From positions 68,857 to 132,856 of IMG/VR virus record IMGVR_UViG_3300021254_000022: a stretch of 64,000 bases of DNA, one strand, 5' to 3'. Shown in pieces: positions 960-53,310 of this stretch (the first letter of the stretch is position 1; every line of letters starts with the position of its first letter). The position numbers and the translations under genes were made by a program. Source of the stretch: a virus. Taxonomy: Duplodnaviria > Heunggongvirae > Uroviricota > Caudoviricetes. Below the pieces are notes generated by a model. The model had not been told where the DNA came from. It worked only from the letters and a program-made list of their open reading frames with translations, and ran no database searches.

Positions 960-3254
960 ATGTCTATTCAAATTATAAAAAGAAATGGCGATATAGTAGA
1001 ATTTGATAAATAGAAAATCGTAAATGCTATTAATAATGCCTTCCTTGAAGTAGATGGAATATTATATGAAACTGATACTGCAACAGATATTGCTGATGAA
1101 GTAGAATCTATCGCAAAAGTTTTATTTAATAATCCAAAAGCAGAAATGCTTAGTGTTGAACGTATTCAAGATCTTGTTGAAGATTATCTTATGAGATCTG
1201 AGCGCCGTGATGTAGCGCGCGCCTATATTAGATATAGATATAGAAAAGAAGTAGCAAGAGCAACTTCAAGTACATTCTTTGATGCTATTGGAGAAAAACT
1301 TACTGCATCTAATGTACAAAATCAAAATGCAAATGTTGATGAAAAATCATTCGGTGGCCGCATGGGCGAAGCTACTGGGGTTATGACTCGTCAATATGCA
1401 CTTGATAATTTAATTTCTCCTAAACATGCAAAGAATCATTTAAATAATAGAATTTATATTCATGATCTTGATGCATATGCAGTTGGTATGCATAACTGTT
1501 TGAGTATTCCATTTGATGATCTTCTTGCTAATGGATTTAAAACAAGACAAACAGATGTGCGGCCGGCTGGTTCTGTCAATACAGCTTTTCAACTTGTTGC
1601 AGTTATTTTTCAGCTTCAAAGTTTACAACAGTTTGGTGGAGTAAGCGCTACACATCTTGATTGGACTATGGTCCCATATGTTCGTAAATCTTTCTTTAAA
1701 CATTTTAAAGATGGATTAAAATGGTGCGAAGAAGCTTCTGGAGGCTGGGTTATAGAATTTCTTGAACAAGAAGATATTACTCAAATCAGTATTGAAGACG
1801 ACGCTTATATGAAACATAAAAGAGCTTATGAGTATGCCTGTGAAATGACTGAAAAAGAAGTGCATCAAGCGGTTGAAGGCATGTATCATAATCTTAATAC
1901 TTTGCAAAGTAGAAGTGGTAATCAATTACCATTTACTTCTATTAATTATGGAACTTGTACACTTGCCGAAGGAAGATTAGTTACTTCAGAACTTTTAAAA
2001 GTATCTATTGAAGGTCTTGGAAGTAAACATCTTACAAGTATCTTTCCTTGTGGCATTTTCCAATGTATGAAAGGAGTTAACCGTGTACCAGGAGATCCCA
2101 ACTACGATTTATTCAGATTAGCTTTACAGTCTACCGCCAAGAGATTGTATCCAAACTATGCCAACGTGGATTGGAGCAACAATGCCGGATACGATGTGGG
2201 AGACCCCAGAACGTATTTCTCAACTATGGGGTGTAGAACGGCTAATGGATTAGACATCAATGGGCTAGGGCAGCTCAAGGATGGACGAGGTAATATATGT
2301 CCTGTCACTATCATAATGCCAACTTTGGCTATGGAAGCTATGGAAAAAGCTAAAGGTTATGATGCATATGGTGGACCAGGTAATGTGAAACTTGCTCATA
2401 TTGATTTTGGTGGAGATCCAATTGATATTTTTATGGAGATACTTGATGAAGCAATCCATGATGCTAAAGACGAATTAATTGAAAGATTTGAACACATATG
2501 TGCACAATCACCAAGTGCAGCTAAGTTTATGTGGGAAAATCGAACAATGGCAGGATATATTCCAGAAGAAGGAATTAGAAGTGCTATGAAACATGGTACT
2601 GTTGTTATTGGGCAATTAGGACTAGCTGAAACACTTCAAATTCTTATTGGAAAAGATCATACTACTGAAGAGGGTATGGTTCTTGCTAAACGTATTGAAA
2701 CGTTATTTAAGAAACGTTGTGCTGAATTTAAAGAACAATATAAATTAAATTTTGGAGTTTATTATACTCCTGCAGAAAATCTTTGCTATACAGCTATGAA
2801 GAAATTTAGATTGAAATATGGAACTATTCCAAATGTTTCAGATCATGATTTCTTTACTAATAGTATGCATGTCCCTGTATGGCATCAACTTAGTCCTTTT
2901 GATAAAATTGATATTGAAAGTCAATTAACAGGATATAGTAATGCCGGATGTATTACTTATGTAGAACTTGAAGAAAGCGTATGGAAAAATATTGATGCGC
3001 TTGAAACTCTTGTTAATTATGCTATGGATAAAGATATTCCATACTTTGCAATTAATGTGCCAAATGATAAATGTCTTGATTGTGGATATGAAGGAGAATT
3101 TAATGATTTCTGTCCTGAATGTGGTAGCCACAATATTCAGCAATTAAGAAGAGTTACTGGTTATCTTACTGGTAATTATACTACAGCATTTAATCTTGGT
3201 AAGCAAGATGAAGTTCATAATAGAGTAAAACATACGGGGTATATGGAACAATGA
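960..3254 (+). CDS. nrdD: Class III (anaerobic) ribonucleotide reductase with N-terminal ATP cone, 764 aa with TAG=Gln at codon 18
   Basis: GGAGG RBS, then ATG at 960. The ATP cone MSIQIIKRNGDIVEFDK(TAG)KIVNAI is in frame with the track ORF 1146..3254. Motifs: GMHNC, finger loop TMGCRT, zinc site CLDC...CPECGS, glycyl-radical loop RRVTGYL. Confidence 0.95.
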
Positions 3255-3808
3255 TAAAAAGTATTTTAGCTGGAATAGCTATAGCAATAGGAGCCTATAT
3301 AAATTTAAAAGTTGGAGGAATTGCTGGTGCAGTTTTGTTTTCTGTAGGCTTATTTCTCGTTTGTAATTTTAAATTAAACTTATATACAGGCAAAGTTGGT
3401 TACACAGGTATTATAAAAAATTTGCTAATTTTGTTAGGAAATCTTATTGGATCTTTATTCTTATATTTTTATCCAACAGAAAAAGCAGTAGAATTAATGT
3501 AGAATAAATTAAATACACCTTTATATATATCTTTCTTTAATGCTATTATATGCGGCATCCTTATTTATGCGGCCGTTGAAGCGTTTAAACAAAAGAAAGA
3601 TTATATGATTTTAGTATGCGTGCCGGCTTTCATCTTATTTGGCGCTGAACACTGTGTTGCCGATATATGTTATGCAGCTTCAGCGCGCGTCTGTTCTTGG
3701 CAATTAATTTTATTTTTAGTAATTGTGATACTTGGTAATTCAATAGGCTCCTTATTATTTAGATATTTTACTAAAGGAGATATAGACTCATGCGCTATGC
3801 GGGAATGA
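3251..3808 (+). CDS. Short formate/nitrite transporter (FNT/FocA family) channel, 185 aa with TAG=Gln at codon 84
   Basis: Track ORFs 3251..3502 and 3605..3808 are in frame and joined across the TAG at 3500-3502. Hydrophobic helices with FNT motifs LYTGK, GNLIG, EHCVAD (conserved His) and GNSIG. Overlaps nrdD (ATGA) and nrdG. Confidence 0.8.
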
Positions 3809-4296: not shown

Positions 4297-4311
4297 AAAA
4301 TATGTTATTAT
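4283..4311 (+). promoter_or_regulatory. Sigma-A/sigma70-type promoter for the 4329-6417 block
   Basis: TTGACA (4283-4288), 17 bp, TATTAT (4306-4311) with a TG extended -10; AAGGA RBS and ATG at 4329 follow. Confidence 0.75.
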
Positions 4312-4328
4312 ATTTATAAAGAAAGGAA

Positions 4329-4859
4329 ATGAATATGGTAACAGTTGAAAATATAAAGATTTTAGAAAAATTAAAAAACCATGAAGATGGAGAAGTTTTC
4401 TATGTAAAAGATGAAAATAAACTTTATGTTTGGAATGAAGGTTCTAGTTCTTTTAAAGAAGTTGATAAAAAAATGGTAACCGATGGTGGTTTAAAAATGA
4501 ACCTTTATGAAATAAATAAAAGTATTATTTCTCAATCAGAACCTCTTGATGAAGCAAAAATAAATGATCTTAAAGATATGGTAAATAGTATTTTAGATAA
4601 AAATTATTATTTATTATATGGAGAAGAAATATCTTATTTTACTTTATTTGAAAGAAAACCTCAAATTATTCAAGTCCCAGGAGAGGACACTTCATTGGGT
4701 AATATGTTAATTGAATGTTTAAAAGCTTTTGATAAAGTATATAGTTATGAACTTCTTGATAATGGAGCTATTGAAATTTGGGTTCATAATAAAGATAATA
4801 ATCTTGCTACTGTTTTATATCTTTTTGATTATACAGATGGAGTAGTTATATATGAATAA
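4329..4859 (+). CDS. Hypothetical protein (176 aa)
   Basis: Clean ORF with RBS, TAA stop and no TAG; no motif recognised. Confidence 0.8.
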   Translation: MNMVTVENIKILEKLKNHEDGEVFYVKDENKLYVWNEGSSSFKEVDKKMVTDGGLKMNLYEINKSIISQSEPLDEAKINDLKDMVNSILDKNYYLLYGEEISYFTLFERKPQIIQVPGEDTSLGNMLIECLKAFDKVYSYELLDNGAIEIWVHNKDNNLATVLYLFDYTDGVVIYE

Positions 4860-5112
4860 AATTATATGCAGAGTTGATCCAGGCTTAGGTCAATAGCATG
4901 TTTTATTTTATCAAGATGATAAATTAGAAACTCAAGAAGCTGTTCCTATGTCTGATCTTGCTAATTTCTTATTGAATACTTGTTATACTGAGAATTGTTA
5001 TAATTTACATTTCATAGGAAATTGGAAATTTTTAGAAGGAATTATTGAAGAAATTTCAACAGAAGAAACAACTAAATATAATACAAATAAAATTCAAATG
5101 GAGATAAATTAA
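4852..5112 (+). CDS. Hypothetical protein (86 aa), missed by the ORF track because of a TAG at codon 15
   Basis: ATG at 4852 overlaps the previous stop. MNKIICRVDPGLGQ(TAG)HVLFYQDDK...IQMEIN ends at TAA 5110-5112, which directly abuts the next ATG at 5113 and fills an otherwise empty gap. Confidence 0.75.
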
Positions 5113-5358: not shown

Positions 5359-5909
5359 TGGCAAAGTTTGAAAAAGTAAATCGTTTTAATGATATTGATT
5401 TTGATATGCCTGCGCGTAAAACCATGTATAGTGCTGGATATGATTTTGTAGTAGCTGAAGATATTGTTGTTCCGCCAATGGAAAGCTTAATGGATGAGAT
5501 TGCTGATTACATTGCACTTGAAATTCATGGAGATTTAGATGAGCCTGTGAGTTTGGATGAAATGGCAGCAATTACTAAAAAATTAAAAGCTAAACCGACT
5601 CTTGTTTCTACTGGAGTTAAATGTAAATTAGATGCTGATCAATACCTTGAACTCAGTGTAAGAAGTTCTTGTCCATTAAAAAATTGGCTAATTCTTGCAA
5701 ATAGCGTAGGAATTATTGATGCAGATTATTATAATAATCCAGATAATGAAGGAGAAATATTTTTCCAAATGATTAATCTTTCACCTTTACCAATTTATCT
5801 TAAAAAAGGAGATAGAATTGGTCAAGGAATAATTAAAAGGTATGATCGTACAGAAGATGATCATGTAACAGATCTTCGTACTGGCGGTATGGGAAGTACT
5901 GGTGCATAA
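5358..5909 (+). CDS. dut: Trimeric dUTPase (183 aa)
   Basis: Motifs SAGYDF, VRSS, GIIDADYY, GDRIGQG and RTGGMGSTG. Confidence 0.93.
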   Translation: MAKFEKVNRFNDIDFDMPARKTMYSAGYDFVVAEDIVVPPMESLMDEIADYIALEIHGDLDEPVSLDEMAAITKKLKAKPTLVSTGVKCKLDADQYLELSVRSSCPLKNWLILANSVGIIDADYYNNPDNEGEIFFQMINLSPLPIYLKKGDRIGQGIIKRYDRTEDDHVTDLRTGGMGSTGA

Positions 5910-6417
5910 ATTACTTGCATTAGATCAGGCATCAAGAACAACAGGTTGGGCATATTATGAAGATAATCAATTAAAATAGTTCGGAAAATTTACTGCTGAT
6001 TAGGATGACATCGGAGAACGACTTTTCTATATCAGAAATCAAGTAAAAAATTTGATTTCTAAATACGAAATAGATGAGCTAGTTTTCGAAGATATACAAT
6101 TCCAAAAGTCAGTAAATGGAGTAAGTGTACCGGAAAATGTAAAAACTTTTAAAACATTAGCAATGGTTTTCGGCACAGTATATGAATTATGTGTTGAATT
6201 AAAACTACCCCGAACTGCAGTATTAGCAAGTGTTTGGAAAAGTAAATTAGGGATAAAAGGGCATGCACGAACTGATTAGAAAAAAGATGCTCAACGATAT
6301 GTAAGAGAAACTTATAATATTAAATGTACTCAAGATGAAGCTGATGCTATATGCATTGGAGCCTATATAGTAAACAGTAATATAACAATAGAAGAAGATC
6401 ATGATTGGTCTGATTAA
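5902..6417 (+). CDS. ruvC: RuvC-like Holliday junction resolvase, 171 aa with three TAG=Gln codons
   Basis: GTG start at 5902. Motifs LALDQASRTTGW (catalytic Asp), VFEDIQ, and C-terminal TQDEADAICIG. The last motif lies beyond the TAG at 6277-6279 (RTD-Q-KKDAQ). Ends at TAA 6415-6417. Confidence 0.85.
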
Positions 6418-6420
6418 AAC

Positions 6421-7436: not shown

Positions 7437-10400
7437 TTAATTAACTTTAATCCAGATTCTTCCTTTTACCATAATATCTGCGGCAACTCCATTTTCAGGA
7501 TCACCCGCATGCCAAATTTCATAATCTGGAATTTCTGAAACATATCCAACTATTAATTCTGGATATCTTCTGATTTCACGTCTGCTCATTTTACTTACTG
7601 TACCATTAGGACCAGAACAAACTGCATCTCCAGGTTTATAATCATTTCTATCTCCATCAACATATGCAAGAACTCTTCCTGCAACGGCTATTGGAGTTTT
7701 AGATTCTGGAGTTTCATTCATAGATGTTCCATAAGTATCAGAAGTAATATTAGCACCTGCTTCTAGTCTATATTGAGTAATATGTTGTTCGCCATCACCA
7801 TTTTCAGCTACTACTTGACCCATTTGAACATCTTTAACTGTTTTACGATGTTCTGCATAGTCATTCCATACTGCATTATAAACACGCGCTGCATACCAAT
7901 AACCATCTGCTGTGCCATAAATTGAATTCATAGAAGAGTTATTTGCTCCATCAGTATGACTTGCGCTATAAATAGAATCTGCAGTATAACTTAATTGGAA
8001 TCTATTTGCCCAACCACTAGCATTATATTCACCTAACTGCCAAGATCCATTTGCTGTTTTTATAGATAAAATTGCATGCCAACCAGTAGAAGATGTCTCT
8101 CTTAATATGGCAGTATCTCTACAATTCCACCAAGAAGAACCTCTAGCTTCACGTCTAAATTGATTTCTAGCTTTTATAATAGGAGCAGTTAACCAAAGAT
8201 CTCCGCCATAACCATTTGCAGCATTTTCAGTTGTAACAAAATGGAAAGAAACACCAGGTCCTGCATTATCATTATCTGTAAATATTATTGCACCTGCTTG
8301 TCCGCTGCTCATACTATCCGTAGTATTAAATTGAATTTGAGGACCACCATCACCAAATCTAAAATTACCTGCAGCATTTGCAAGCATTTGATTTGCAGTA
8401 TTGCCATAAGTTCCACCCCAAATACGAATACCATTAGCTCGAATATCTACAGTTGCCCCATTTCGAGAATTAGAAATCTAATAATTATTCAATACAGATA
8501 CATTAGAAGCTGAAGATATAGTATTAGCAGTTGAATAATAAGCCATTCTATTAGCAGTGCCGGCAGCCGGATTAGAGCCTCCACCGCCCTGTAATAATGC
8601 CATTAATTGATTTTTATGTATAGCTCTTAATTCATAACCATTCCAAGCTGCTAAATAAGTAACATTAGAAGCTGAAAGACCTGCTGCACCATAATTTAAG
8701 TATATAGAATTATTATTAGTTCTATCCTTTACAGGTCCAATAAACTAAGTTGCAGTTACTGTTGCTGGAAAAACAGTATTAAAAGCATAATCATAAAGAT
8801 ATACATGATCTTGTAAAGCTAAATTGCTAGGAGTTGTCCATCCGACTCCGCCATAACCATAAATACATTGTACAATTAATCCATTAGCTTCACGACCTGC
8901 TGTAATAGTATCATGACTGAAAGTAAAACGAATTCTACCATACTATGAAGTAGCAGTATTTCCATAAGTAGTAAAATTACACTAAATAACATTCCAACCA
9001 GACCATCCTGAAATTGGCTAATTCTCACAAATTTTTAAAGTATAATTATTAGGATCATTTTGAAGAGCAGCATCAATAGTAACTTTACAATTATTAGAAT
9101 AATTAGTTGATATATAGATCATAATTTTTCTAAGTTGTGTATATACTAATCCTACTCCAGTATCCATAATAATTCTTAATTGGGAAGTATTAGAAACATT
9201 TCCGCTTGGAACCATCCGTAGTCCTGTTGTAGTAGTAAATAAACTTGTTTTTTGAGCGTTTGTTGCTCCATAATCTGTCCAAGTAGAACCCCCATCAGAA
9301 GAATATTGAATTGTTACTCCTTCAGCTTTAAAGCCTGCAAACCTATTAGCTCTTAATTTACTATTTAAAGCAGTATCAATTGGAGAAGTTGTCCCAGCAA
9401 AATTATTATTTCCAAATTGGATTTTAGAATCATAAATTTCTAAGTTACTTTTTAATTGATCTTTATGTATAGCTCTTAATTCATAACCATTCCAAGCTGC
9501 TAAATAAGTTATTGATGATAATCCTATAGCAGAAGCTCCATAATTAACATAAGTAGAAGTATTATTTGTTCTATCTCTTAATGCTGTAGCATTGCCATAT
9601 ACATTATCAATATAAGCATCTTTAAAATACCAACTTGAAGTTCCTAAACTCTAATGTCCAGAACCAGCGCCTCCACTTTGATAAGGAATAATACCCAAAG
9701 ATGTTGTTCTAATCCAACCAGTATCTACACCATCAGGATCTCCCATACCCCAATAACCATTAGCATGAGTCATAAGCATTGCAGGCTTTTTACCTTCAGC
9801 TCCATAAAAACGTCCATCAACTTTAATTGATAATTTTCCGCCAGAAGGATTATCTTTTCTAAATTCGATAGATCCTCCAGAAGAATCATTCCACGTTGTA
9901 ATTCCAGTACCAGTCTAATCTCCCCAGCCTGCAGAAGATTGAGAATTTGATGCAAATCCTAAAGGCATAGAAGATGTATTAGCATTACCGTTTAATACTA
10001 CATTTCCAGAAGCATCAGAGTAAACAACCCATTTAGAATGTTTACGAGAATAAATTCCACCATTGCCACTTGAACCAACAATAAAAGCAACCTAATTAGG
10101 ATTTGTTGCCTGAGTATTTTTTACTTCAAGTCCACATTCTTCTGCTTTGGTAATATAAATTGAATTAGCCATAGTTACAGAACCTTTGGTAATCGTTATA
10201 TTACCACTATTATACGCCATACTCATTTGAGTATCAACATAAGTAGATTGTTTTCCTGAAGCATTATAATTATCTCTAATATGAAGAGTACCACTTTCAT
10301 TTGCGATTTGCCAAGAAGCGGCAGTTCCTCGCCATAATTCAATAGCAACATTTCCATTTGAAGCATTTTTTGCTCCATCAATAATTAGACCGCCAGTTTC

Positions 10401-13400
10401 ACAAGTTGTTGAAGAAGCATTTGGTGCAATTCTTAACTAACCAGTGTAAGAACTTAAAGCCATTCTTACTGTTGGTTCTGTTGTATTTGCACTTGCCGCG
10501 GCCTCTGTCGCAGCTTCCCAGACCCAACCATATCCAGATGCATTTTGGATAATATTTCTATATGCCCAAGAAGTTACATTGCCTAAAGAACCTGGTTTTC
10601 CTCCAGTTGGGCAAGAACCATTTGAAGCATCTGACATATATGTATGCCATGTCCGATAAGAAGGACTATAATAACTAATTCTACCAAAAGAAGCATTTGC
10701 ACTTCTATTTAAATCTAATCTACCTCTTATAGAAACATTTCTGCTTCCAACAGTAGAACTATCATTTATATGAAGAACATCGTTAGCACCAAATTTAGCA
10801 ATATCAGAATTAGTACCATAAATATATAATCCATATTTATTAGTATTTAAATAAATTTTTTCTGCCCAATCTGAATCACTTTGATTTTCTATATATAGAA
10901 CAGCATCTCTAGAATTGTCACTTGAATTATTAACCATAACAATACTATTAGGAGTATACCATCCATCTTGATAACTACTATTATTTCCCCAAGATACTGT
11001 AGGAACTTTAGTATAATTTGCATCTATGGTGACATCAGAAATAGCTTCAACTTTTGTATTTAAAACATCATAACTTGCCGCAGTATCTAATCCATGTAGA
11101 TGTTCTACCCAAATAGATGAATAATTATTGCTAGTAGGATTTATATAAATAATAAAAGGTTCTGCTAATTTATAATAAATATTAACCTTTTCAATATCTG
11201 GGCCGACCATTGTAGCATAACTCTTATCTAAAGACCAAGCACTACCATTCCAATAAACATAATGTTTAAGTTCAATTTGCCCACGAGGATTAGCACTATA
11301 ATCTCCGCCGACTATAATAGTCATTGAGTGCATATACCAACGAGCTGAACCTTCAGGATTTAATGTTGCTGCTGCAGTTCCATGTTCTGGTAAAACAATT
11401 CTATACCATTTACTACGTTGAGCACTTCCTACATAAAGAGCTTGAGAACTCTATGTACGAATACCACCACTAAGATATAAATTTTTCCAACGATGATCTG
11501 AAAGACCTAAATTACCACTATTATCTACTCTTGGATAAATACTTGTTGTATTTGGATTTACATAGATATTTTTAGTTCCATTATATGCAAATGCAGTAAG
11601 AGCATTGGCATCATCTCGCATATTAAATACAAGATTACCTTGATCTGCTGCATCTAATTGATAATAAATATCTGCCGCATCAGTACCACCTGCCCAAGTG
11701 ATTTTTCCAGTTGGATCACTTGCCGCATTAGTAGCAATACTTCCCATATCAAGAGCATTAAAATATCCAGTTTTCCATCTCTATCCAGTAGTACCTAAAT
11801 CTAATAAAACATTTGTTTCAGGTCTTAGAGTTGCGCTATTTAATCTTAGATAACATTTTTTACCATCTGCCGCTGGATAAAATACTATATCACTATCTGC
11901 ACAAAGATATAAATTTTCATCACCTGAAGCTTTATTCACTTCTGTTCTAATAGTATTAGCGCTTTCACCACCGCCAATAAACATACTACCAGTAGACCAG
12001 ATAGCTAAAGCTTGATTATAACTAGTTGCAGTTGGAGTCTAAAATGCTCTAATATAACTACCACCTTGAGTATTAGACTATTCTGTAGCTTTAACTCTAA
12101 GAACAATAGAAGCCGCTCCAGCATCAGTATTTATATTTGCTGTAGTTGTATCTCTATCTATATAAAGAATACCATTTAAAACCTCAGCATTTCCACTAAC
12201 ACTTAAATTAAAATCAGTTCCACAAGCATGATTTATATATAATCTATTATGAACACTAAAACCATTTGTGCCACCATTAATGCCTGGAGCAGTAGTTCCA
12301 TTTGATCCATTTCTACGAATATAAAAATCACTATTTGCAGTTCCATAACTTCCAATAAGCCAAACATCTGTACCGGTTCCTGATTTAGTATCTTTTGTTC
12401 CACCTAAAGCAATAGTAGCCCAATTATTAGAAGCTCTGTTAATTCTTAAACCTTCATTATAACTATTTGTACTGCCAGAATACTAAGGATCAATAACTAT
12501 TTTGCCATGGATTAAAGTTTCATTTGGCGCTTCAGCAGAATTACTTCCTAATTGAGTTCTACCTGCTACATATAGAGCATTTACAGTAGTACTTGTAACT
12601 CCAGATAAAACTATTTCAGTAGGTTTATTTATAGTAAATTTAGAACCATTCCAAGTAATTTTTCCAGTTGTTGCATCAGTGGTATCAATAGTTGTACCTT
12701 TGCTTGCAACATATTGTAAAAATGCAAGACCAGTATTTCCATTTATACCTTTAAGACCTATATGGCCGGCAAGATTTACATCACCTAATGTAGCATCATC
12801 GCCAATAGCATTAAGAGTAGCATTAGCAAAATAAACTCTATTATTAAATTTAGTAACTCCGGCAAATAAAGCTTGAGGAATTGCATTATCATAAGTCGCA
12901 TTAGCAACAGAAGACATATCTTCACTATTTACACGAAGATATTGTGTAGAAAACATTCCATTACTGACATCAAAACGCCACTAATGATCAACTCCATTTG
13001 CCGTTCTTGTAGTTGCTGATCCAACAATATAAAAACTATTATTTAAAACGCCTAAACTAAACCATCTACCAGATCCAGAATTTTCTTGACGCATCCATGG
13101 CCAATAAGATCCAGTATCAGTTGCTTTACTAACTGCAAAAGCAACTCTGTTTTCAGTATTTTGTCCTTGTAACCAACTTCCTGCAAGAGAAGTACCATAT
13201 AAAGTTGCCCCATAGACACCTTTCCAACGGTAAGTTGCAGTACCCATATTAGCAGCTTGATCTACTTCTGGAGTAACATTGTCACCATCATCAATAGTTA
13301 CACCACTACTTTGTAAAGATAATGGTTTTTCGCTTTGGACATCCCATCTAACAATACGATTATCTTTTGCTGTATTAGCTGAAATTGTATCTTCACTAAT

Positions 13401-27500: not shown

Positions 27501-28771
27501 TCATAAATTGAAGAAATATCCCAATAAGCCCAATTAGAAGTACTATATTCAACTTCTAATTCTGAAATTTGCATACCATTTTTAAATAATAATACTGAAG
27601 ATTTACGTTGATTTTGAACATCTTCAGGATTATAAACCATGAAAGGAATAGAAGCATTTTCATAGTTAATTACAGTTTTATCATATTTTCCTAACCAAAT
27701 AACAGGAGTATTTTCTTCTGGATCAATCCAAGCTGCCTCAAAAGAAATCTTATCTGATTCCAAAGTATTACCACTAATAGTAGCACTAACACTTAAATCA
27801 ATTTTATGTACACCATGAGAAAGATTTAATTCTCTATGGTTAACAGTAACAGTACGATCTTTATTATATTCTTGAGCATCAATAGTCCTACTCATTGAAG
27901 GAGCTTCCACTCCATCCACATAAGCATGTAATGTTTCAGTAATACCTTGACCTCCAATAGGAATGTAATGTAATGTTAAACGAATACCACTGTCATCCAT
28001 AATAATAGCTGGTATATATTCATCTTCAGTTGTCTTTTTAATTCCCATTTCAACAACTCTAATACCAGTTACTCGTTTAAATGGAGGTGTTGTCATTGTA
28101 CTATTATCCGCTGTTGCCGTAACAACCATGGTGATACTTTGATTTAAAGGCAAGAAACTCAAATCTAGTAAATATGGCTCTCCACTTTCAACATGATTTG
28201 CAACACGGCTATCAGTATATCCACCTTGGCCAGTAAATTCAAATGAAAGGGTTACATAAGGATCTGTTGTTGAAGTTGCTGTAACTGCAACATTATGTGT
28301 TTTTCCATAAATTAAAGTTTGAGAGCTTGCTAAAGTATCAGAGTCTACGACGACAGTTAAATCTGGCTTATAGCCACCGCCACCGCCTTCACCGCCGCCA
28401 CCAGATCCACTGATAGCAATTCTTGTACAAGTATAAGTTCCTTGAGCATTATTAACACTTACAATTTTATAAAATGCTCCATCTGAAGTATTTATAATTA
28501 AATCTTCTTCTTTAAGTGTAACACCTTCTTCAGTAATTGCACTCTGATTTAAAATATAAAATCCAAGGCCATCTGCGTCTTGAGGAACTTCCGCTTGCTG
28601 TGCATAATATAAAGATACTCCAGATCCACCGACTGGAATACGCTTTTCTTCTGCATCTAAATAAATTTTACCAGAATCTGAAGCAAAATAAACCCAACCT
28701 TCATTATGTCCGGTTGACAGAATCTAAGCTTCAGTACCATATACTGGTCTAAATTTAGTTTGAGTTGTCAT
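21533..28771 (-). CDS. Giant virion-associated protein (2412 aa): LamG-like domain, CotH-like kinase-fold region, leucine-rich repeats and C-terminal BspA-type LRR
   Basis: Five track ORFs share one frame and are joined by TAGs at 28724, 25751, 25439, 24638 and 23351. ATG at 28771 has a GGAG RBS. CotH-like motifs VQGTSSQGYPRRNYK, KIDYMESSGSYN, IGRYNMNLDK, DSRGKN and FYDIDTQLG. LRR stretches LEEFRALNT, LKYVQIPASLRYIGKTAF. Confidence 0.75.
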
Positions 28772-31689: not shown

Positions 31690-31724
31690 AATAGCTTGGC
31701 CTCAATTAAGAGGCCTAAGCTATT
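31690..31724 (-). terminator. Stem-loop terminator after the 2252-aa gene
   Basis: aatagcttggcctc-aattaa-gaggcctaagctatt with one bulge. Confidence 0.6.
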
Positions 31725-37700: not shown

Positions 37701-38481
37701 TTCTTGCATCAGTATAAGAAGCTGTATCAAAAGCAAAATTCTTTTGATAAGGTGAATCATTATCATTTGTTAATTGAGTCCATTGATAATATCGTTTAGT
37801 AACTGTTTGATCATCAACAAGTTCTTCTTCTTCTGTTATATCATATAACATCCAATACTAAATATCTTCATTTGTACTATATTGATAGCCCGGCGCCAAT
37901 ATACAAACAGCCTAGTCTTGAACCCAATCTTCATAACCTAAACCAGGTCCTTTACTATTTGCAATTAAACCATTTTCTAATATTAAATAATGAGTTTCAT
38001 TAGACGTATTTAAAGTATCATATTCAGTACGAGTAATACTTTTTACTCTAAAGCCTCCATTTGCCGCCGAATCTTCAATTAATTGTTTATATTGAATTGT
38101 TTTTGGTCCAATGTCATAAATATTATGATGTTGTTTTATGACTGTGATAGAACCTTTTGGAATTCCTTCTATTGAAGAATCTGTAGGAGGAACTACTAAA
38201 GTATTTTGATCTATTTGAATAAATGGAGCAGCTAATATTGAACTATACATATTTCCATCTACACAATAGAAATCATAATTTTGAAAATATGGATTTGAAG
38301 TAGATACAAAATCATCTAGCGTAAATCCAATTGGTGCTTGATCATATTCAATAAGAACATACCGACCGGCATATACACCATCACTACCACAATTTAAATC
38401 CATTTCTGCTCTATTAGCATAAATTTTATCAAACTAAAATTGAGTTCGAGAAGTGTTCTTTATATTACCATAAAATCCCAT
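31723..38481 (-). CDS. Giant tail structural protein (2252 aa) with six tandem DxxGH modules
   Basis: Ten track ORFs share one frame and each ends at TAG. ATG at 38481 (MGFYGNIKNTSRTQF-TAG-FDKIY) has a GGAGG RBS; ends at TAA 31723. C-terminal fibre motifs such as FDSRYYTETEVD. Confidence 0.8.
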
Positions 38482-44970: not shown

Positions 44971-47900
44971 TTAAGAAAATGTGATAGTGGCTGTACCAAA
45001 ATCATCATCATCAATTTCTGTTACTACACTAGAACTCCATACTCCATTAGATAAAGTACCTGATGAAGTATCGTCTATAAATTCAATAGCACTAGAAGTT
45101 GTTGCACTTGCTGATACATCATATTCATGATCATATTTTCCACTATTATTATTATACCAAGTCATATTACCAACATAAACGTATGTAGTGCCGCCTCCAC
45201 CTCCAGAAACGGTACTAGAAGTTGTGGCAACACCATCTCCAGTTTTAGGATAACCACTTTGTGATAAAGAGATATGTATTGTATTTCCATCAACCCAAGC
45301 AGATCCATAAACAGTGCCGCCTCCTCCGCCAGCATGAGTAACAGTTGTATAAGTATAACCAGTTGGAGCTGTAGAAGATGTATATAATACTGGAGTTACA
45401 CTAATAGTTTTACTTCCTTTTATGGTTGCTTTAAACTTTTTTTTTAAAGAATTAGCAAATGCAAGTTTTTTAAGATCTTCTAATGATCTGCTTTCACCAG
45501 CTGCTTTAAATTTATAACTTAATTTTTCATCTTTAATAGTAACATTAGAAGTGCCAACGCTTAACATATTATCTCCACCTAATCCACTTGGCTAAATATG
45601 TAATTGTTTTCCTTGAATATCTCCAGTAGAAGTTAATTTTATAGTAGCAGTTGAACCTCCGACATTAACGCTATCTAATTTAGCAACACCTGCTTTAGTA
45701 ATACTATAAGTATCAGAATCTCCAAATTGAAGAGTATTATCCATTACCATTTTGGATTTTACTGTTATATTACCAGTACCATAACCTGCTAATTCTTTAA
45801 CGTTTAAAGCTTCTTTTAATATTAATTTATTTAAAGATCCTTCGCCATCTGATTTAAAATAGTAACTTCCTGAACCAGGAGAAGTATTTCCATTACCACC
45901 AGTACTACTTCCAATCCATAATGTTTTTGTAGAAACAAGCTCGACATCTGCTACTATTTTATCGTGAACAGAAAGACCTGTTTTTCCATTTCCTGCTAAC
46001 CAAATTCCATTACTTCCTGAAAGAGTTACAGCATTGCTTGAATGTATTTCAATTCCAGCACCACCTACACCTTTTCCTTGAGCATCTATGTAATCGCTAG
46101 CCCATTCTATCGAAGCTTTTTCAGCATTTAAAATAAATTTAGTAGTTATAGATGAAAAATTAGCTCCATCACATTTCCAACTACCAAGTCCAGTTCCTCC
46201 AGCGCCTCCACCGAAACCGCCAGAAACACCACCAGTTCCAAAACCTCCAGCAGTACCTCCAGTATTAGAAGCACCACTCATGGTGACTCCTGCACTGGTA
46301 GCATTTAAGTTATTGGCATAAACATTTCCATTTATTCTTAAACTACCATTTACAACAGCTTCTTGTCCACTTTCAGTAAGAACTATATCTCCACCTAAAG
46401 TTAATTTTCCATCAGCTCCACCTTTAACATAAGCTTTGCCTCCTGCTGTTTCTAATGCGAATCCAGTATTATTTAATACAAAAGATCCTTTTCCTGCATT
46501 TATATCAATACCCTTAGTAGCTTTTATATCAATACCACCATCTGTTCCAGAACTTCCATTCATATTAATATAATTATTAGAATTAACATGAAGATTGATA
46601 CTAGGAACTGAAGCTTTTCCTTCTATATAAACAGTTGAAGCATATAATTTAAAATATCCTTTTCCTGCACCTGAAGAAGACCCCTCTTTATTTGTTAGAG
46701 ATAAACCTGCGCTTCCACCGTATAAATCAACTGGTTGTCCGCCAGTAACATCTCCTCCTTTTCGCCCTGCTTTAAAAGAACCTTCTTGTTCAGTATTAGC
46801 ATAAATTTTTAAAGAACTTTGTTGAGCAGCATTTAAAGCATAATCTTCACGTCCTAATTCAATAGTTTTTGCATAAATAAAACTTTTTGAATCTGTATCG
46901 TCTAATAATCCAGCCTAAAAATTACCTGCTATACTAGTATTGCCATAAAAATAACTATCTTTAGTATATGATCTAAATATACTTCCTTCATCTGTAATAA
47001 CAGTAGATTTTTTTTGTGAATGAGCAGTAAAAGTATAATTTGTTGGTGTAGTTGTTCCAGCATTCGCCATACCTACTGTTAAATTATTTCCAATAACTAC
47101 ATTTCCAGATATTAATGTATTTCTATAGATTACTACTCCAAATTTTTTAACACTTGCATCATTGGCATTTCGATCAGTATTACTTGTTTTAGCAATAACA
47201 CCTATATCACTTTGCCAAATTCCTTCTTTATCACCCAGGTAAGTTTTACCAGTAACTTTTAATATACCATAAATTTTAGTATCAGCATAAAAAATAGCTT
47301 TATTAATAGTAGGAGATTCTGTTTCAGATGTTAAATTAATTTCTTTACTTTCTCCAACTTCTAGTCTTCCAAAAATATAACTATTTCCATTAATGACAGA
47401 ACGACCATCAAGAACACTTCCACCTTTTAAGAAAAATCTTAAATTCTTTAAATTTAAAGAAGTTCCTTTGGGTGTTGTAAAATATTGATTATAATCATAT
47501 TTGTAATCATTTAAAGCATCATCTGCTTTTGTCTTTAAATCTCGTGTCTATCTATTTCCTGTGTACATAGGAGAACTTGTTGTTGAAATAACAAAATCTG
47601 TACTAGATTCTTCAAAATCTCCAGAATTTGGTGTTTCTCCTCTTGGCCCTACGGCTTGTCCACGAGGATGCATTGCATATTTATAAACAGCAAAAACATC
47701 TCTTACGCTTAAACCATCTCGACCTAAATATACTCCATATGGACTAGGTTCACTAGATGCATAAAATGATTCATTATTAGACAACCAACCATTATTAGAA
47801 TATAAAGCCCAACTAGATATAGTAAAAGGTCCAATTTTACCTCCTTGATCAGCTTTTAAGTAATCAAGAGTAACTAAACCTTTCCAACTAACACTAAAAA

Positions 47901-50900
47901 GTCCACCAATCATAAAAGGTCTATCATAAAGCTATTTAGTTACCTTTTTAATTTTTGGTAAGCTTCCCGTCGTCATAGCTTCTAATTCTGCATCTGTTTT
48001 AGAATTACAGTCTGCAACTAATTGAGCTTCAACAGTTTCTGCATCATCTTGAGCATTTATATAATCATAATTAGGAATATAAGAAGTTACTGTCTTCCCA
48101 GTTACAATTTGATCAGTTGCGGCAGAATTTAAAACTATTCTTCTTGAATAGTCTTTATTTTTTAATCCAGGAGAATAAGCATCTATTCTAAAACTATAAG
48201 CTGTTAATAAACTTCCTTTTCTTGTAGTTCCAGTTACTTCACTAGTTAAATTTTCATCTCCATTTAAATTAAAATATAAACCTCTACCAATCAATTCACC
48301 ATTTGGAGCTTGATAATCTCTCGATTTAATGGCCCAAGCGCCTTTTCCAATATTAATTAAATCAAGATTTTTATTTATTAAAACTCCATTATCATCATAA
48401 GAACTCCAATCTGGATTATTACTAATTGTTGGAGTATATTGATAATGAATTTTTAAATAAGGTTGTCCATCAGATCCTATAGCAACATAAGAGCCTTTAT
48501 AATGAGCATCTTCTTCTCCAGTATCAATCATACTTAAAGTAAAATCATGTCCATAAAGTGCGCCTTTTGTTAAATCTAATAAAACTCCAGTTCCTGTTTT
48601 TGTTGGATCTATAACTCCTGTTTCAGTCCCTGCAATTTGAGTTTTTGTAAATCTTGATGGAATATAATTCCAAGATTGTAAATAAAATTCACTTTTTGAT
48701 ACTCGAATTAAATCTTTTTCAATTTTTTTATTTACATTTGGAGTTGCTACATTATAATTTTTATAAGTTTTTGTCTAATCAAGAGTTCCAGTTACTACTG
48801 TTCCATCCCAATCTTCGACATAAGGTAATAAACCTTTGTTATTTAAAATATTTATTTTTTCATTATCAGTATTTCTATAATGAACAGCTAAAAATGGATC
48901 TCCATTGCTATTTAACTCAAAATATGAATCTTTCATAGCTTTGGTAGCAGCATCGCCTTCCTATCCATTATTAACGCCTTTTAATTTAAAATTATATCCA
49001 AGAATATAACCATTCTATAAATCAAAAAGGAAACCTTCACCGTATTCATTACTTTCTTTAAATTCAGATAAAAATTCCTAAGTATATTTTTTCTAAGCAT
49101 CGCCTGTATAAATCTATTTTATAGGATAATAATCTAAAATATCATCTTTAACAGTTTTACCATCAGCTTTAAAAATTTCTCCTTTAGGAAATTTAAAATT
49201 ATCTGTTTTTAAATAATAAGAATCATCAGCAATATGAATTAATTTATTCTAATTCTATGACTAAACATAAAAATATGGATTAGTAGTAGATATTCTAATT
49301 CTACTTCTTGATGCAGTATACTATGGTTTAAAATGCTCATCATTTAATAATTGAGTCTATCCAATTTCTTGAATATATAACCATTTTTTCCAATCATCAT
49401 CATATTTTTCTGGATTAGAATTAAATTCATTTAAAATTGCATCAATAGCATTTATAGACGGATTATAAAGTAAATTACTTTTTTTCTAATATGCAAGTTT
49501 ATAATTTTGATCAACAAAATCATTAGCGATAGTCTATTGTATTTTTGTTTTTTGAGCATTTAATAAAGTTTTTTGTTTATTTAAAGCTTGTACAATAGTA
49601 GCATATACTGTTGTAGTTTTTGTACTTGATTCTAAATCTATAAACTAGATTCCTGATAAATTAGCACCTTTAATATCAACTAATCCATCATCAAGATCAA
49701 TTAACATACCAGAATCTGCTTTTCTTGACAAACTAGCAATTTGTCCAGAATTACCATCAAATGTGATTTGTCCTCTATCAGATTTACCAATAAAAGCAGT
49801 TCCATCTACTTTAAATCCAAAACTTTGAACACCTTCATTGTATCCATATAATCCAAGAGGAATAACACTTTCAGATGTATTAGAAGTAATTGATGCAACA
49901 TCACCCATAATAACGCCATTAAAACGATTACGCTCATCTTTCATGCCGGCGCCCATTAAACTAGATAATATTGTACCATTTTCTTCATCTATACTCAGAC
50001 TGCCATCCCATGAATTTAATAATGCTGAAGTATAACTATTTTGATATATGTATAAAGGCTATGTCCAAACTAAATTATTATTTATATAACAATTAACAGC
50101 AATTTGTTTACCATTACTTTTTATATAATAAGAAGCTGGTATTAATTTATTATCACTTGATAAAGTTGGATAAAATTTCTTAAAATCATTTGCATTTTGA
50201 TTTGAAGTAAAAATTCCATCCATACCTGCCCCATAAGATATTTCCCAACGAACTTGATTAGTTATCTAAGTAGTTGTCCTATTATTATAATTGTAAATTT
50301 TATAAGAATTTTTATAATATTTAGGATTTATTCCTTGAGCATCATAGGAAATTCTATCGGCTCCATCAACACTTGTATAAATAATACTTGAACGTACAGG
50401 AATTGGTAAATATGTATCTAAAAATACCTATTTTCCATTAATATTAAAAGCTTGAGTAATTGAAGCTTTTAATATATGATATTTACATTTATTAATATCA
50501 TCCTATGCTTGAGGCATTGAAATTACTTGATTTCTTGAATTATTTCTTGTATCAAGATTTAAATATCCAGAATTTGGACCCGGGCTATACCATTCATAAT
50601 GAATTTTATCTGCTGGAATTGTATCAATAATATCATTTCCTTCAAAATTATATAAATGAGGAATGATTGTTATTTTATCTTTTATTTCCGTTCCTAGCTG
50701 TGTAGTAATAGCAGGTACTTTTCCTTCAATCTCTAATTCAAAAGAATAATCAGTTCCATTTGTTCCAGTAGGACCAAATGATAAAGTTGCTTGTGCTTTA
50801 TATACTCTATTATTTTTCCGAACAGTGCAATAAATAGTATTATTTGAATTTGCTTGAGTATAAAAATCTTTTACTCTAAAGACTTGACCACTTGAGCTTG

Positions 50901-53310
50901 GCCATTCGATTCCTTCTTCATGAGGTTCAAAACTTTCTCCAAGTCTAGTAATATCAATATAACCAGCCTATTCATTTATCGCCCAAGACTCAAAGCCTTT
51001 ATAATAATATTTAGTATTTTGTTGCCAATTTGATCCTGACGGAACAGCGTTATACTTTTTTGTATTAGGATTATAAGTATAAAGCTATCTATCACAATTT
51101 ATAAAATCTATAGCAACCTAAATATCTTTAGCTTCTGTATAAGCAGAAAATTCTATTTCTTCTTCAGGCTTCTAAATCATTGTATTTTTAGTAGGAATAC
51201 GCCATGTAATAGATTCAATTTTATCATTATTTCTATCACCCGACATTAATGTATCCCAACTAGCAGTTATAATACGTTTTTTCTAACTTTCTTTTTGGCT
51301 GATTATTTGTCCATCATCATCGTAAATTCTATAGTTACCTTTATATCCATCTTCATCTACAGTTAATTGTAAAGCGTTTGCTAATTCTAAAGTAGAATAA
51401 TCTGGAGAGGCATCTTCATTCGTAAAAGATAAAATTGCACTATAATATTTTTTTCCTGCAGCTAATCTAGATTGAATCCGTTCAATAACAATTCTTCGAG
51501 AAGAAATTTCACTATTTAAATTTTGTTCAACATCTAAAAGTAATCTACGATATTTTTTAGTAATATCATTTGCCGCAGAATCACTACGTTTTAAACCTTT
51601 TTCTGCTAATTCTGCTTCATAAGCAGCTATAATAGAATCAATTTCTGCATTTAATCCTTCTGCGCTAAGCCGCTGTGAATAATACTAAATTTCTTCTTCT
51701 AATTTAGTAATACCTAATATAACCCAATCATAAAAAGTATATCCAACTAAATCGCTTCCAATACGTGGATCATTTATTATTTTACGATAATATTTTCCTG
51801 CTGCGGTATAATTTGCTGCAGATGTATAAGTAATATCAGTTGCATCATAAGTATATAATGCACCATATTGCTCTTTTAAATCCTCAAATTGAGTTCTATT
51901 TTTTACTTCAATAGGATAATAAAGTCCTTTAAAATAATCTTCAAAAGGTTTTTTATTAGTTTCAGTATTTACAAATTGATCATTATAAATCGATTCAGCT
52001 ATTTTTTCCTATGCAGGGACTTCTATAATAATTTTAAATAATTGATTAGGTGATTTTATATCTGGATCAAAATTTAAATATTCAAACTTATTTTTATAAT
52101 TTGTAATTTCTTGCCAATAATTTCCTGCAAGAGGATCATTAATACCTTCCTAAATAACTTGTTGATACCAATGAACAACCACTCCTTCTGTAGCAAAATT
52201 ATCTAAATAATTTTCATATGCAACTGCCTCTTCTTCATTTACGAAATGAATCCAACGACAATACATATTTTTTCTATTTAAAAGTTTAAGCCATTTATTT
52301 TGTTCATTTTCACTATTATGTATCATTACTTGAGCTTGAAGTAATTGTTCATAATTATTATTATAATCTTCTAAACGGAGAGAATCAGCAATTAAATCTT
52401 TTTTATCATCTGTTAAATAAGAAGCATAAGTTGCAGAATCTAAAGTATATAATAAAATAGTATCTTCTGAAAATTTATCTAAAGAATATCCTAAACTAAT
52501 ATATATATTATTTACAAATAAATTATCTATATTTATGCCATCGGCTGAATTAACAAGTAATTCATTTTCTGAAATTCTAAAATCATTACCTTGATAAAAA
52601 GTAAGAGTCATTGACTCTATACATTCCATTTCAGAAATATCAACTACTTTTTTCTAAGTATAATAAGTCTCATAATTATATGGATCGCCATAAAAATCAT
52701 TAGTATTTAATACTACTGAATACAATTTTTGACTATTTTGAGTCTAAGTCGTACCCATAGTTCGAGTAACGATATCTAATCTTAATCCATATGTGCCTGC
52801 GCGCACTCCCAACTCTTTCAGCCAACTTTTAAAATCTGCTTTAATAGCTAGTTTATCATATCCTTTAAAATTTCTACCTGCAATTGACCAAATAGTTTTT
52901 TCAGTAATATTACCGTTAGCTTTTAAACTTGCCGGAAGTGTTTTAATGTCTTTTGTTATGATATTTTTTGTAATATCAATAAAAGATTTCATAGGATCTA
53001 CATAAGTGAAATGTTCACTATCATCTGTTACATAACGTCCTACTATAATCTTTTGTTTTGAATAATCATTTTCAACAACAGTTACTAAAACTACAGTTCC
53101 TTTAGAATAATTCGTATTATCTGAGAAAGCTTCATATGTACTTGACCCATCAGTTACAATATATTTTCCAATTGAACTATCTGAGGCATCTATGATGGTA
53201 GCAGTAACTGTTTTATCGTAAGTTAAAGCTTCAATTCGTTTACCTATAATTAAATCTAAAGCAGGTAAAACATTCTACATCGCTTCTGGAATAGATTGAC
53301 TACTTGCCAT
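44971..53310 (-). CDS. Giant tail-tip / central spike-like protein (2779 aa)
   Basis: Seven track ORFs share one frame. ATG at 53310 has an AGGAGG RBS; ends at TAA 44971. N-terminal OB-fold-like segment (TVTATIIDASDSSIGKYIVTDG); Gly-rich beta-repeat region GLYGYNEGVQSFGFKVDGTAFIGKSDRGQITFDG. Immediately follows the TMP. Confidence 0.75.

What the first reader, a model, noticed from the sequence alone, without database searches (positions are those of the whole stretch)
960..53310. Recoded TAG codons at positions 12-18 of all giant genes and nrdD: possible 5' translational gates
Seen, first TAG by codon number: tail fibre 12 (18000-18002), 2412-aa protein 16 (28724-28726), 2252-aa protein 16 (38434-38436), 2779-aa protein 12 (53275-53277), nrdD 18 (1011-1013), 4852 gene 15, ruvC 26. 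In nrdD it is the only TAG in 764 codons. In the 2412-aa gene it is one of five and is followed by about 990 TAG-free codons. Uniform placement would put a TAG this early roughly 2-3% of the time in each of those two genes. Counter-examples exist: first TAG at codon 79, 84, 107, 114, 145, 220 and 223 in other genes. Inference: an early TAG makes host RF1 abort translation after about 15 residues until the phage switches the code. This cheaply gates the most costly genes and is a more specific design than general TAG enrichment in late genes.
Basis: partly seen in the sequence, partly recalled or inferred. Interest (0 to 1): 0.75.

Follow-up and report, generated by a model that had tools for sequence, protein, structure and literature searches.

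The report
Early TAG codons in recoded phage
In this gut phage, which reads the stop codon TAG as glutamine, TAG codons really do pile up in the first 10-40 codons of genes that otherwise avoid TAG, but the evidence fits "an aborted read is cheap and harmless there" at least as well as a purpose-built switch for the giant genes.

Summary
In nrdD, GT2 and RuvC the TAGs lie inside Pfam domain matches.

In this 156-kb genome, TAG is the most 5'-enriched of 59 codons: 32 observed against 16.9 expected in codons 2-30. Other rare codons show a weaker rise of about 1.6x with the same shape.

I fetched nine whole related TAG-recoded phages:
- The bias sits in TAG-poor genes. Genes of 300 aa or more with one or two TAGs have 24 TAGs in codons 2-30 against 7.2 expected (3.3x). 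The best control codons reach 1.9-2.6x.
- TAG-rich late genes are flat at about 40% of Gln codons.
- Giant genes in relatives show no excess (16 against 15.6), and orthologs of this phage's giants do not keep the TAG.
- nrdD orthologs repeatedly carry a TAG in the first 45 codons, often their only one: 11 of 21 against 1.8 expected.

The bias survives strict start-codon filters and a control for residue variability. Head TAG frequency never exceeds the level in TAG-saturated genes.

Best reading: position-dependent tolerance of a leaky codon, which makes these genes dependent on the suppressor tRNA. A selected gate is possible but not shown. Neither this scan's earlier notes nor the papers I searched report this bias.

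The parts
960..3254 (+). nrdD (anaerobic ribonucleotide reductase, 764 aa). Its only TAG is codon 18 at 1011-1013, inside the ATP-cone.
   Evidence: Pfam NRDD 1e-142 and ATP-cone residues 3-96. GGAGG lies 5 nt upstream of the ATG. TAG verified.
4852..5112 (+). 86-aa gene of unknown function; single TAG at codon 15 (4894-4896).
   Evidence: No Pfam family.
5902..6417 (+). RuvC-like resolvase (171 aa, GTG start). TAGs at codons 26 (5977-5979), 34 (6001-6003) and 126.
   Evidence: Pfam RuvC match at residues 6-76 covers both early TAGs..
7437..18035 (-). 3532-aa tail-fibre-like giant gene. First TAG at codon 12 (18000-18002), immediately followed by ATG. Next TAGs at 63 and 135, then none until 1015.
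   Evidence: AGGAGG 12 nt upstream, with TAA directly before the ATG.
21533..28771 (-). 2412-aa giant gene. TAG at codon 16 (28724-28726), one of five; the next is at codon 1007.
   Evidence: P(TAG at or before codon 16)=0.115 by Gln-shuffle and 0.031 by uniform placement.
31723..38481 (-). 2252-aa giant gene. TAG at codon 16 (38434-38436); 24 TAGs in all.
   Evidence: Orthologs that are 70% identical in the N-terminus have ACT or TCC at this site.
44971..53310 (-). 2779-aa giant gene. TAG at codon 12 (53275-53277); 33 TAGs in all.
   Evidence: Orthologs have GAA at the site and their first TAG at codons 76 and 97.
53423..64000 (-). 3' part of the 4304-aa tape-measure gene, whose start lies beyond the window at about 66337. 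First TAG at codon 10; 84 TAGs in all.

Best explanation
TAG is a glutamine codon in this phage. It is read by the phage's own tRNA(CUA), presumably in competition with the host's release factor 1, so every TAG is a leaky stop.

In genes translated while suppression is incomplete, TAG is purged from the gene body. These are mostly replication, nucleotide-metabolism and accessory genes, which are TAG-poor. TAG is tolerated in roughly the first 40 codons. A failed read there releases a peptide about as short as, or shorter than, the ribosomal exit tunnel can hold. Such a peptide costs little and cannot fold into a harmful truncated protein.

Late structural genes are translated when suppression works well. 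They carry TAG at a flat, saturated level.

The early TAGs of nrdD and the giant genes are instances of this position-dependent tolerance. Its by-product is that these genes are throttled until the suppressor tRNA is available.

Shown here: TAG is used as a sense codon, the phage carries the suppressor tRNA, and the positional statistics hold. Inferred: competition with RF1, the timing of expression, and why short abortive products are harmless.
For: TAG reads as Gln:
- Own TAGs align to Gln in relatives 24.5% of the time, against a 3.1% background, with the same substitution profile as CAA/CAG.
- tRNA-CUA lies at genome 20170-20259.
- No release-factor gene was found.
- TAG makes up 0.073 of Gln codons in the + strand block and 0.24 in the structural block.

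The bias is confined to TAG-poor genes:
- In ten genomes, 136 genes with no TAG beyond codon 100 carry TAG at 19% of Gln codons in codons 2-10, 18% in 11-20, 6% in 21-30, 10% in 31-40, 3% in 41-60 and 4% in 61-100.
- TAG-rich genes are flat at 0.30-0.43.
- Genes of 300 aa or more with one or two TAGs have 24 against 7.2 expected, z=7.0. This holds under strict start filters at 3.2-3.7x, p<=1e-4.

Features that fit tolerance:
- Head frequency stays at or below the saturated level.
- Other rare codons show the same but weaker 5' rise. A position-dependent cost of premature termination predicts this; the framework is in PMC13271495.
- Sites are not conserved. nrdD uses four different head sites, and the giants' sites are not kept.
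- There is no dependence on gene length.
- Head TAGs are more often followed by C (21% against 14%, p=0.004). In E. coli that is the weakest termination context (my own knowledge). It suggests selection for read-through, not for a tight stop.
Against: - There is no 5'-to-3' decline of TAG within gene bodies beyond codon 100 (Stouffer z=0.02). A cost simply proportional to wasted length does not fit. A threshold near tunnel length has to be assumed.
- In three of this phage's giants, the 1000 codons after the head are TAG-poorer than the distal part. This is the opposite of a waste gradient.
- Three genes of this phage have every head Gln codon as TAG and none in the body: the NlpC/P60 lysin 3 of 3 (p=0.0009), the Cys-repeat protein 2 of 2 and GT2 2 of 2. 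Head TAGs are mildly clumped by gene (p=0.02). This hints at gene-specific selection.
- nrdD head sites reach 0.34, above the 0.07-0.14 of the TAG-poor class overall.
- A TAG lowers full-length yield whatever its position. Tolerance therefore needs that loss to be compensated or harmless.
- Expression timing, RF1 competition and suppression efficiency were not measured.
Confidence: 0.5

Rival explanations
1. Selected 5' gate or throttle. One or a few TAGs near the start are kept by selection in particular genes, such as nrdD, a secreted peptidoglycan hydrolase and the giant virion genes. These genes then cannot be translated until the suppressor tRNA has accumulated. The aborted product is a harmless peptide of 10-30 residues.
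For: - nrdD orthologs of recoded relatives carry a head TAG in 11 of 21 TAG-bearing cases, against 1.8 expected. It is often the only TAG in about 750 codons, and it occurs at four different sites, so the gains were repeated.
- At variable alignment columns, TAG is 0.34 in the nrdD head and 0.094 in the body (p=0.0009).
- The NlpC/P60+SH3 hydrolase has three TAGs, all within its first 31 codons (signal-peptide region). This fits the published idea that recoding guards lysis genes (10.1101/2021.08.26.457843).
- All five giants of this genome have a TAG by codon 16 (joint p about 0.002).
- Head TAGs are mildly clumped by gene.
Against: - Giants of nine relatives show no excess.
- Orthologs of the giants lack the TAG. 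The two 2779-aa orthologs use CAA/CAG early although 54-79% would be expected to have a TAG by chance.
- Head TAG frequency is never above the saturated roughly 0.40.
- There is no length dependence.
- Giants with 23-84 TAGs need no special first one.
- Head TAGs favour the weak +4 C context.
- The suppressor tRNA sits in the same-strand tRNA island as several head-TAG genes, so any delay may be short.
Confidence: 0.3
2. Generic N-terminal codon effect. TAG behaves like any rare or slow codon. Such codons are enriched in the first 30-50 codons of bacterial and phage genes (the 'ramp', or effects on initiation and mRNA structure). Nothing is specific to its being a stop codon.
For: - Rare codons rise in the same codons 11-30. 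GCC 1.67x, GCG 1.61x and CTG 1.68x in this genome. The rare-GC set is 0.16-0.18 there against 0.06-0.09 later.
- In nine relatives, pooled TAG enrichment is only 1.19x. That is no more than ATA, GTC, GAC and CTA.
Against: - In matched strata, TAG is about twice as enriched as the best other codons: 3.35x against 1.9x for GTC and CTG and 2.6x for ATA.
- In this genome the odds ratio for codons 11-30 against 41-100 is about 5 for TAG and about 2 for rare codons (my arithmetic on the counts).
- The effect is absent from TAG-rich, presumably highly expressed, virion genes. A ramp should be strongest there.
- TAG and CAA have the same G+C content, and the co-enriched codons in this genome are G+C-rich. 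Low mRNA structure is therefore not the cause.
Confidence: 0.13
3. Artefact or neutral by-product. Either starts are called too far upstream, so that in-frame TAGs of the 5' leader are counted. Or TAG simply marks young Gln codons at fast-evolving residues, which are commoner in N-terminal tails.
For: - In-frame TAGs do occur just upstream of true starts. PolIII-alpha orthologs L174, L175, L177, L180 and L188 have them at -20, -9 and -6.
- One of my head-TAG calls (G007 18899) is probably such a case.
- TAG is commoner at variable than at conserved columns in the nrdD body (0.094 against 0.033).
- Fast-evolving genes gain TAG (10.1101/2023.08.07.552389).
Against: - The signal survives after requiring an ATG start, an RBS match of 5 nt or more, and no ATG/GTG/TTG within 25 codons after the first TAG: 3.2-3.7x, p<=1e-4.
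- Head TAGs lie inside domain matches in nrdD, GT2 and RuvC. In relatives they lie inside conserved motifs of DnaB and GIY-YIG.
- Among variable columns only, head still exceeds body: nrdD odds ratio 5.0, p=0.0009; all TAG-poor genes odds ratio 7.1, p=0.0025.
Confidence: 0.05

Closest known systems
Stop-codon recoding (TAG to Gln, 'code 15') in gut phages as a regulator of late and lysis genes (Borges et al., preprint 10.1101/2021.08.26.457843; proteomic proof in PMC9523058)
   Same: The phage has its own suppressor tRNA(CUA). TAG is used as Gln. TAG is rare in replication genes and common in structural genes. A cell-wall hydrolase is recoded. The idea that in-frame stops block translation until the code is switched is the same.
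   Different: Those papers compare genes with one another. In the texts I could search, none analyses where in a gene the recoded stops lie. Here the new point is a within-gene bias. TAG-poor genes carry their few TAGs in the first 40 codons or so, and TAG-rich genes show no bias.
Selection against nonsense (premature-termination) errors that grows with codon position (Gilchrist and co-workers; PMC13271495)
   Same: Error-prone codons are tolerated near the 5' end, where an aborted chain has cost little. Ordinary rare codons show the same, weaker trend in these phages.
   Different: Here the 'error' is termination at a reassigned stop codon, a far larger effect than drop-off at sense codons. 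The profile is a step within about 40-100 codons, not a steady gradient along the gene.
N-terminal rare-codon enrichment or '5' ramp' of bacterial genes (Tuller 2010; Goodman 2013; recalled from my own knowledge, not checked here)
   Same: Rare codons are enriched in the first 30-50 codons, and this is seen here too.
   Different: The TAG enrichment is about twice that of other rare codons in matched tests. It is missing from the TAG-rich virion genes.
Amber mutants and suppressor strains of classical phage genetics, and polarity of early nonsense codons (own knowledge)
   Same: A single early amber codon makes a gene conditional on a suppressor tRNA. Early nonsense codons give the shortest fragments.
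   Different: Here the ambers are natural, are spread across many genes and recur in related wild phages.

Membership tests
TAG-to-Gln recoded ('code 15') phage with own suppressor tRNA | In-frame TAG inside conserved domains of essential genes | tested here: met
   The ATP-cone match (3-96) covers nrdD codon 18. The GT2 match (7-134) covers codons 13 and 28, and the RuvC match (6-76) covers 26 and 34.
TAG-to-Gln recoded ('code 15') phage with own suppressor tRNA | TAG columns align with Gln in homologs | tested here: met
   Of 445 aligned TAG columns, 24.5% are Gln against a 3.1% background, and 15% are TAG. The profile matches that of CAA/CAG.
TAG-to-Gln recoded ('code 15') phage with own suppressor tRNA | Phage-encoded tRNA with anticodon CUA | tested here: met
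   ARAGORN finds it at genome 20170-20259. The acceptor stem is U1-A72, G2-C71, G3-C70 with G73, as in tRNA-Gln, and there is a long extra arm. Six of nine relatives also have one.
TAG-to-Gln recoded ('code 15') phage with own suppressor tRNA | TAG rare in early or replication genes and common in late or structural genes | tested here: met
   TAG over Gln-like codons is 0.073 in the + strand block and 0.240 in the - strand structural block.
TAG-to-Gln recoded ('code 15') phage with own suppressor tRNA | Host uses the standard code with RF1 | not testable with these tools
   The host is unknown. Strong AGGAGG sites suggest a Firmicutes-type host. The phage record has no release-factor gene.
   nrdD shows recurrence: 11 of 21 against 1.8 expected, at four sites. 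The giants do not keep it.
   Giants in relatives have 16 observed against 15.6 expected. There is no length difference among TAG-poor genes (p=0.21).
   Head frequency is 0.14-0.19 for the TAG-poor class and 0.34 in nrdD. TAG-rich genes sit at about 0.40.
Generic N-terminal rare-codon bias or ramp | TAG enriched no more than other rare codons | tested here: not met
   TAG is 3.35x (z 7.0). GTC is 1.94x, ATA 2.60x and CTG 1.90x in the same stratum.
Generic N-terminal rare-codon bias or ramp | Rare sense codons enriched in the first 30-50 codons | tested here: met
   GCC, GCG, CTG, CTA and CGC are 1.6-1.7x in this genome. ATA, GTC, GAC and CTA are 1.2-1.3x in relatives.
Position-dependent cost of premature termination | Avoidance of the error-prone codon rises steadily along the whole gene | tested here: not met
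   There is a steep fall within the first 40-100 codons but no trend beyond codon 100 (Stouffer z 0.02). A step fits better than a linear cost.

The most novel reading that the evidence does not exclude
In a whole clade of TAG-recoded phages, a TAG placed within about the first 40 codons is a selected, suppressor-tRNA-dependent checkpoint. It sits on otherwise TAG-free genes such as nrdD, other replication and accessory genes, and a secreted cell-wall hydrolase. This would add a middle tier between TAG-free immediate-early genes and TAG-laden late genes. The position would be chosen so that the aborted peptide never leaves the ribosome tunnel.
Probability: 0.3. Interest if true: 0.75.

Novelty: new variant of a known kind. 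Interest (0 to 1): 0.55.

Why it matters
Work on recoded phages has asked which genes carry reassigned stop codons, not where in the gene they lie. A head-specific bias confined to TAG-poor genes says three things.
- Suppression is incomplete while those genes are expressed.
- The damage from a failed read depends sharply on chain length.
- Some replication and accessory genes are tied to the suppressor tRNA by one codon.

This gives simple, testable handles on the timing of the code switch, namely TAG-to-CAA swaps at single sites. It informs models of how a stop codon is captured step by step: head sites may be the entry points. It also matters for annotation, because standard-code gene callers will clip these N-termini or drop the genes.

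Tried and rejected
1. Start-codon misannotation as the sole cause. Rejected by RBS inspection, by domain matches that cover the TAGs and by strict filters. One relative's call (G007 18899, PolIII-alpha) is probably an artefact.

2. 'Young Gln at variable residues'. TAG is indeed commoner at variable columns, but head still exceeds body among variable columns.

3. Low G+C or mRNA structure. TAG and CAA have equal G+C, and the co-enriched codons in this genome are G+C-rich.

4. Site-by-site conservation of the giants' TAGs. Not found.

5. A linear waste gradient along gene bodies. Not found.

6. Close orthologs of the giant genes and of the lysin in IMG/VR. None found by four scans. The 96%-identical nrdD relative (L001) has a swapped tail module, so its record lacks the tail-fibre start.

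7. PolIII-alpha orthologs as an unbiased second gene family. Their heads hold almost no Gln codons, so the test was uninformative.

8. Paralogy among the five giants as a source of non-independence. No BLAST matches between them.

9. A regex search for a shared tail-fibre N-terminal motif in relatives. Too few hits to use.

10. Neighbours of nrdD in 80 short loci. Weak and non-significant at 1.2x. The whole-genome sets were needed to see the stratified effect.

Full report
**What the window is**

The window is bases 68857-132856 of a 156,391-bp phage record. The record has about 33% G+C (31-32% across the window) and strong AGGAGG ribosome-binding sites. A tRNA island at 0.6-23.6 kb holds 27 tRNAs and a tmRNA. 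One of the tRNAs has anticodon CUA, at genome 20170-20259.

TAG is a sense codon:
- It lies inside Pfam domain matches of NrdD (ATP-cone residues 3-96 cover codon 18).
- It lies inside the matches of a GT2 glycosyltransferase and of RuvC.
- Of 445 TAG columns aligned to homologs from related phages, 24.5% are Gln against a 3.1% background. The profile matches that of CAA/CAG.

This agrees with earlier notes of the scan (e1-1678103, e1-1678104). No release-factor gene is present.

**Checking the observation**

Every coordinate in the finding is exact.
- The nrdD and giant-gene starts are ATG with GGAGG/AGGAGG 5-12 nt upstream. None has a plausible alternative start behind the TAG.
- nrdD has one TAG in 764 codons, at codon 18.
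- The 2412-aa gene has five, at 16 and then 1007 onward.
- The fifth giant gene, the 4304-aa tape measure whose start lies beyond the window, has its first TAG at codon 10.

**Is it more than chance?**

I called 127 genes over the whole genome with an RBS-aware caller reading TAG as Gln. I then shuffled TAG among the Gln codons (TAG, CAA, CAG) of each gene.

| Test | Observed | Expected | Significance |
|---|---|---|---|
| TAGs in codons 2-30, whole genome | 32 | 16.9 | 0 of 2000 shuffles |
| Genes with a TAG by codon 30 | 24 | 14.8 | p=0.001 |
| All five giants with a TAG by codon 16 | 5 of 5 | - | joint p about 0.002 |
| Window only, first TAG at or before codon 18 | 6 genes | 2.9 | p=0.034 |

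The peak is broad. TAG makes up 0.21, 0.31, 0.37, 0.18, 0.10 and 0.05 of Gln codons in successive ten-codon bins. It is not a narrow 12-18 window.

With the same within-gene test applied to all 59 degenerate codons, TAG ranks first (1.90x, z=4.65). GCC, GCG, CTG, CTA and CGC are also enriched at 1.6-1.7x, with the same peak at codons 11-30. Part of the signal is therefore a generic N-terminal rare-codon effect.

**Relatives**

nrdD has hundreds of relatives in IMG/VR, and I analysed 80 loci.
- Of 21 dereplicated orthologs with a non-terminal TAG, 11 have one within the first 45 codons, against 1.8 expected (p<2e-4).
- It is often the only TAG in about 750 codons.
- It occurs at four different aligned sites: 16/18, 32/33, 39 and 43.

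I then fetched nine whole related genomes (G002-G009, G011). All use in-frame TAG, and six have a tRNA-CUA.

Pooled, TAG is only 1.19x enriched in codons 2-30. That is no more than ATA, GTC, GAC or CTA. The effect is sharply stratified:

| Gene class | Enrichment in codons 2-30 |
|---|---|
| TAG is under 10% of the gene's Gln codons | 2.9x (p=1e-5) |
| TAG is 10-25% | 1.8x |
| TAG is 25% or more | 1.03x |
| Giant genes (1500 aa or more) of relatives | 16 observed, 15.6 expected |

In a matched control, I took genes of 300 aa or more in which a codon occurs once or twice. TAG gives 24 against 7.2 expected (3.35x, z=7.0). The next codons reach 1.9x (GTC, CTG) and 2.6x (ATA).

I also classed genes only by TAG use beyond codon 100. 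The 136 genes with none there carry TAG at 19%, 18%, 6%, 10%, 3% and 4% of Gln codons in codons 2-10, 11-20, 21-30, 31-40, 41-60 and 61-100. TAG-rich genes are flat at 0.30-0.43.

The head-TAG genes include NrdD, GyrB, DnaB-like helicases, a GIY-YIG nuclease ('YVGqT') and a RecA-like ATPase. In this phage they also include a secreted NlpC/P60+SH3 hydrolase (TAGs at 5, 20 and 31 and none later), a Cys-repeat protein (7, 20) and GT2 (13, 28).

**Artefact checks**

In-frame TAGs do occur in 5' leaders, so over-long ORFs are a real danger. One of my calls (G007 18899) is probably such a case.

The enrichment nevertheless holds at 3.2-3.7x (p<=1e-4) under these filters: an ATG start, an RBS match of 5 nt or more, and no ATG/GTG/TTG within 25 codons after the first TAG. 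It also holds after dropping G007 and this genome.

A second neutral idea is that TAG marks young Gln codons at fast-evolving residues. This is partly true: in the nrdD body, TAG is 0.094 at variable columns and 0.033 at conserved ones. It is not sufficient. Among variable columns only, head exceeds body in nrdD (0.34 against 0.094, p=0.0009). The same holds in all TAG-poor genes (0.074 against 0.011, p=0.0025).

**Gate or tolerance?**

Against a purpose-built gate on the costliest genes:
- Relatives' giants show no excess.
- Orthologs of this phage's giants have ACT/TCC, GAA or AAA/AAG at the aligned sites. The two 2779-aa orthologs have early CAA/CAG and their first TAG at 76 and 97.
- Among TAG-poor genes, an early TAG does not depend on length (p=0.21).
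- Head TAG frequency never exceeds the saturated level of late genes.
- Head TAGs are more often followed by C (21% against 14%, p=0.004). In E. coli that is the weakest termination context (own knowledge).

Against a simple cost proportional to wasted length:
- TAG shows no 5' skew within gene bodies.
- Three giants are TAG-poorer in codons 41-1000 than further on.
- A few genes have all their head Gln codons as TAG, and there is mild clumping by gene.

I therefore favour a threshold form of tolerance. A read that fails within about 40 codons releases a peptide no longer than the exit tunnel, which is cheap and harmless. Deeper failures give costly truncated proteins. This matters only for genes translated while suppression is incomplete.

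Dependence of these genes on the suppressor tRNA follows mechanically. Whether it is selected for remains open. I put tolerance at 0.5, a selected gate or throttle at 0.3, a generic rare-codon effect at 0.13 and artefact at 0.05.

**What is known**

Recoding of TAG to Gln in gut phages is published. So are its concentration in late and lysis genes and the idea that it blocks premature translation (10.1101/2021.08.26.457843; PMC9523058; 10.1101/2023.08.07.552389). In those texts and in other searches I found no analysis of where within genes the recoded stops lie. Earlier notes of this scan hold none either. The position-dependent cost framework is that of nonsense-error models (PMC13271495).

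The finding is thus a new facet of a known phenomenon. It is real and statistically solid across a clade, with an undecided adaptive status.

Noticed in passing
window 17997-18002 (- strand): In the 3532-aa gene the codon-12 TAG is directly followed by ATG (GGT TAG ATG). Termination followed by re-initiation could give a protein lacking 12 residues without any suppressor. In the 2779-aa gene an ATG directly precedes the TAG.
   Followed up: no
genome 7265-22504 (outside the window, + strand, tRNA island): Six of the head-TAG genes of the + strand block lie inside the tRNA island, around the suppressor tRNA at 20170-20259. They include the NlpC/P60+SH3 hydrolase, the Cys-repeat protein, an SH3 protein directly after the tRNA, and GT2. 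Their bodies have no TAG.
   Followed up: partly
window 7437-38481 (three giant genes): After the head TAG, codons 41-1000 of the 3532-, 2412- and 2252-aa genes are TAG-poor (2/29, 0/31 and 7/49 of Gln codons). The distal parts are richer (20/80, 4/52 and 16/35). This may be because the distal, receptor-binding parts evolve or recombine faster.
   Followed up: partly
L001/L081 (IMGVR_UViG_3300032038_000681) against window 1-6900: This relative is 91% identical in DNA across the polymerase-nrdD region. It diverges completely after about window 6870. Its tail module is different (genes of 2009, 229 and 606 aa with first TAGs at 66, 9 and 16), so there is a recombination boundary at the start of the structural block.
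   Followed up: partly
G006 (IMGVR_UViG_3300021399_000007) 90222-90296: ARAGORN calls a tRNA with anticodon TTA (ochre-reading) next to the tRNA-CUA of this relative.
   Followed up: no
genome 673-985 (outside the window): ARAGORN calls a phage-encoded tmRNA with tag peptide ANYEYRMAA at the head of the tRNA island. A ribosome-rescue RNA is of interest in a phage whose genes hold many leaky stops.
   Followed up: no
L174, L175, L177, L180, L188 (PolIII-alpha orthologs), just upstream of the aligned start: In-frame TAGs lie 6-20 codons upstream of the true start, in the leader. This is a trap for code-15 gene callers, which may extend ORFs through them.
   Followed up: partly
window 3251-3808: A formate/nitrite-transporter-family (FNT) membrane protein gene sits between nrdD and nrdG. 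Formate is a known reductant for class III ribonucleotide reductases (own knowledge), so the three genes may form one functional cassette.
   Followed up: no
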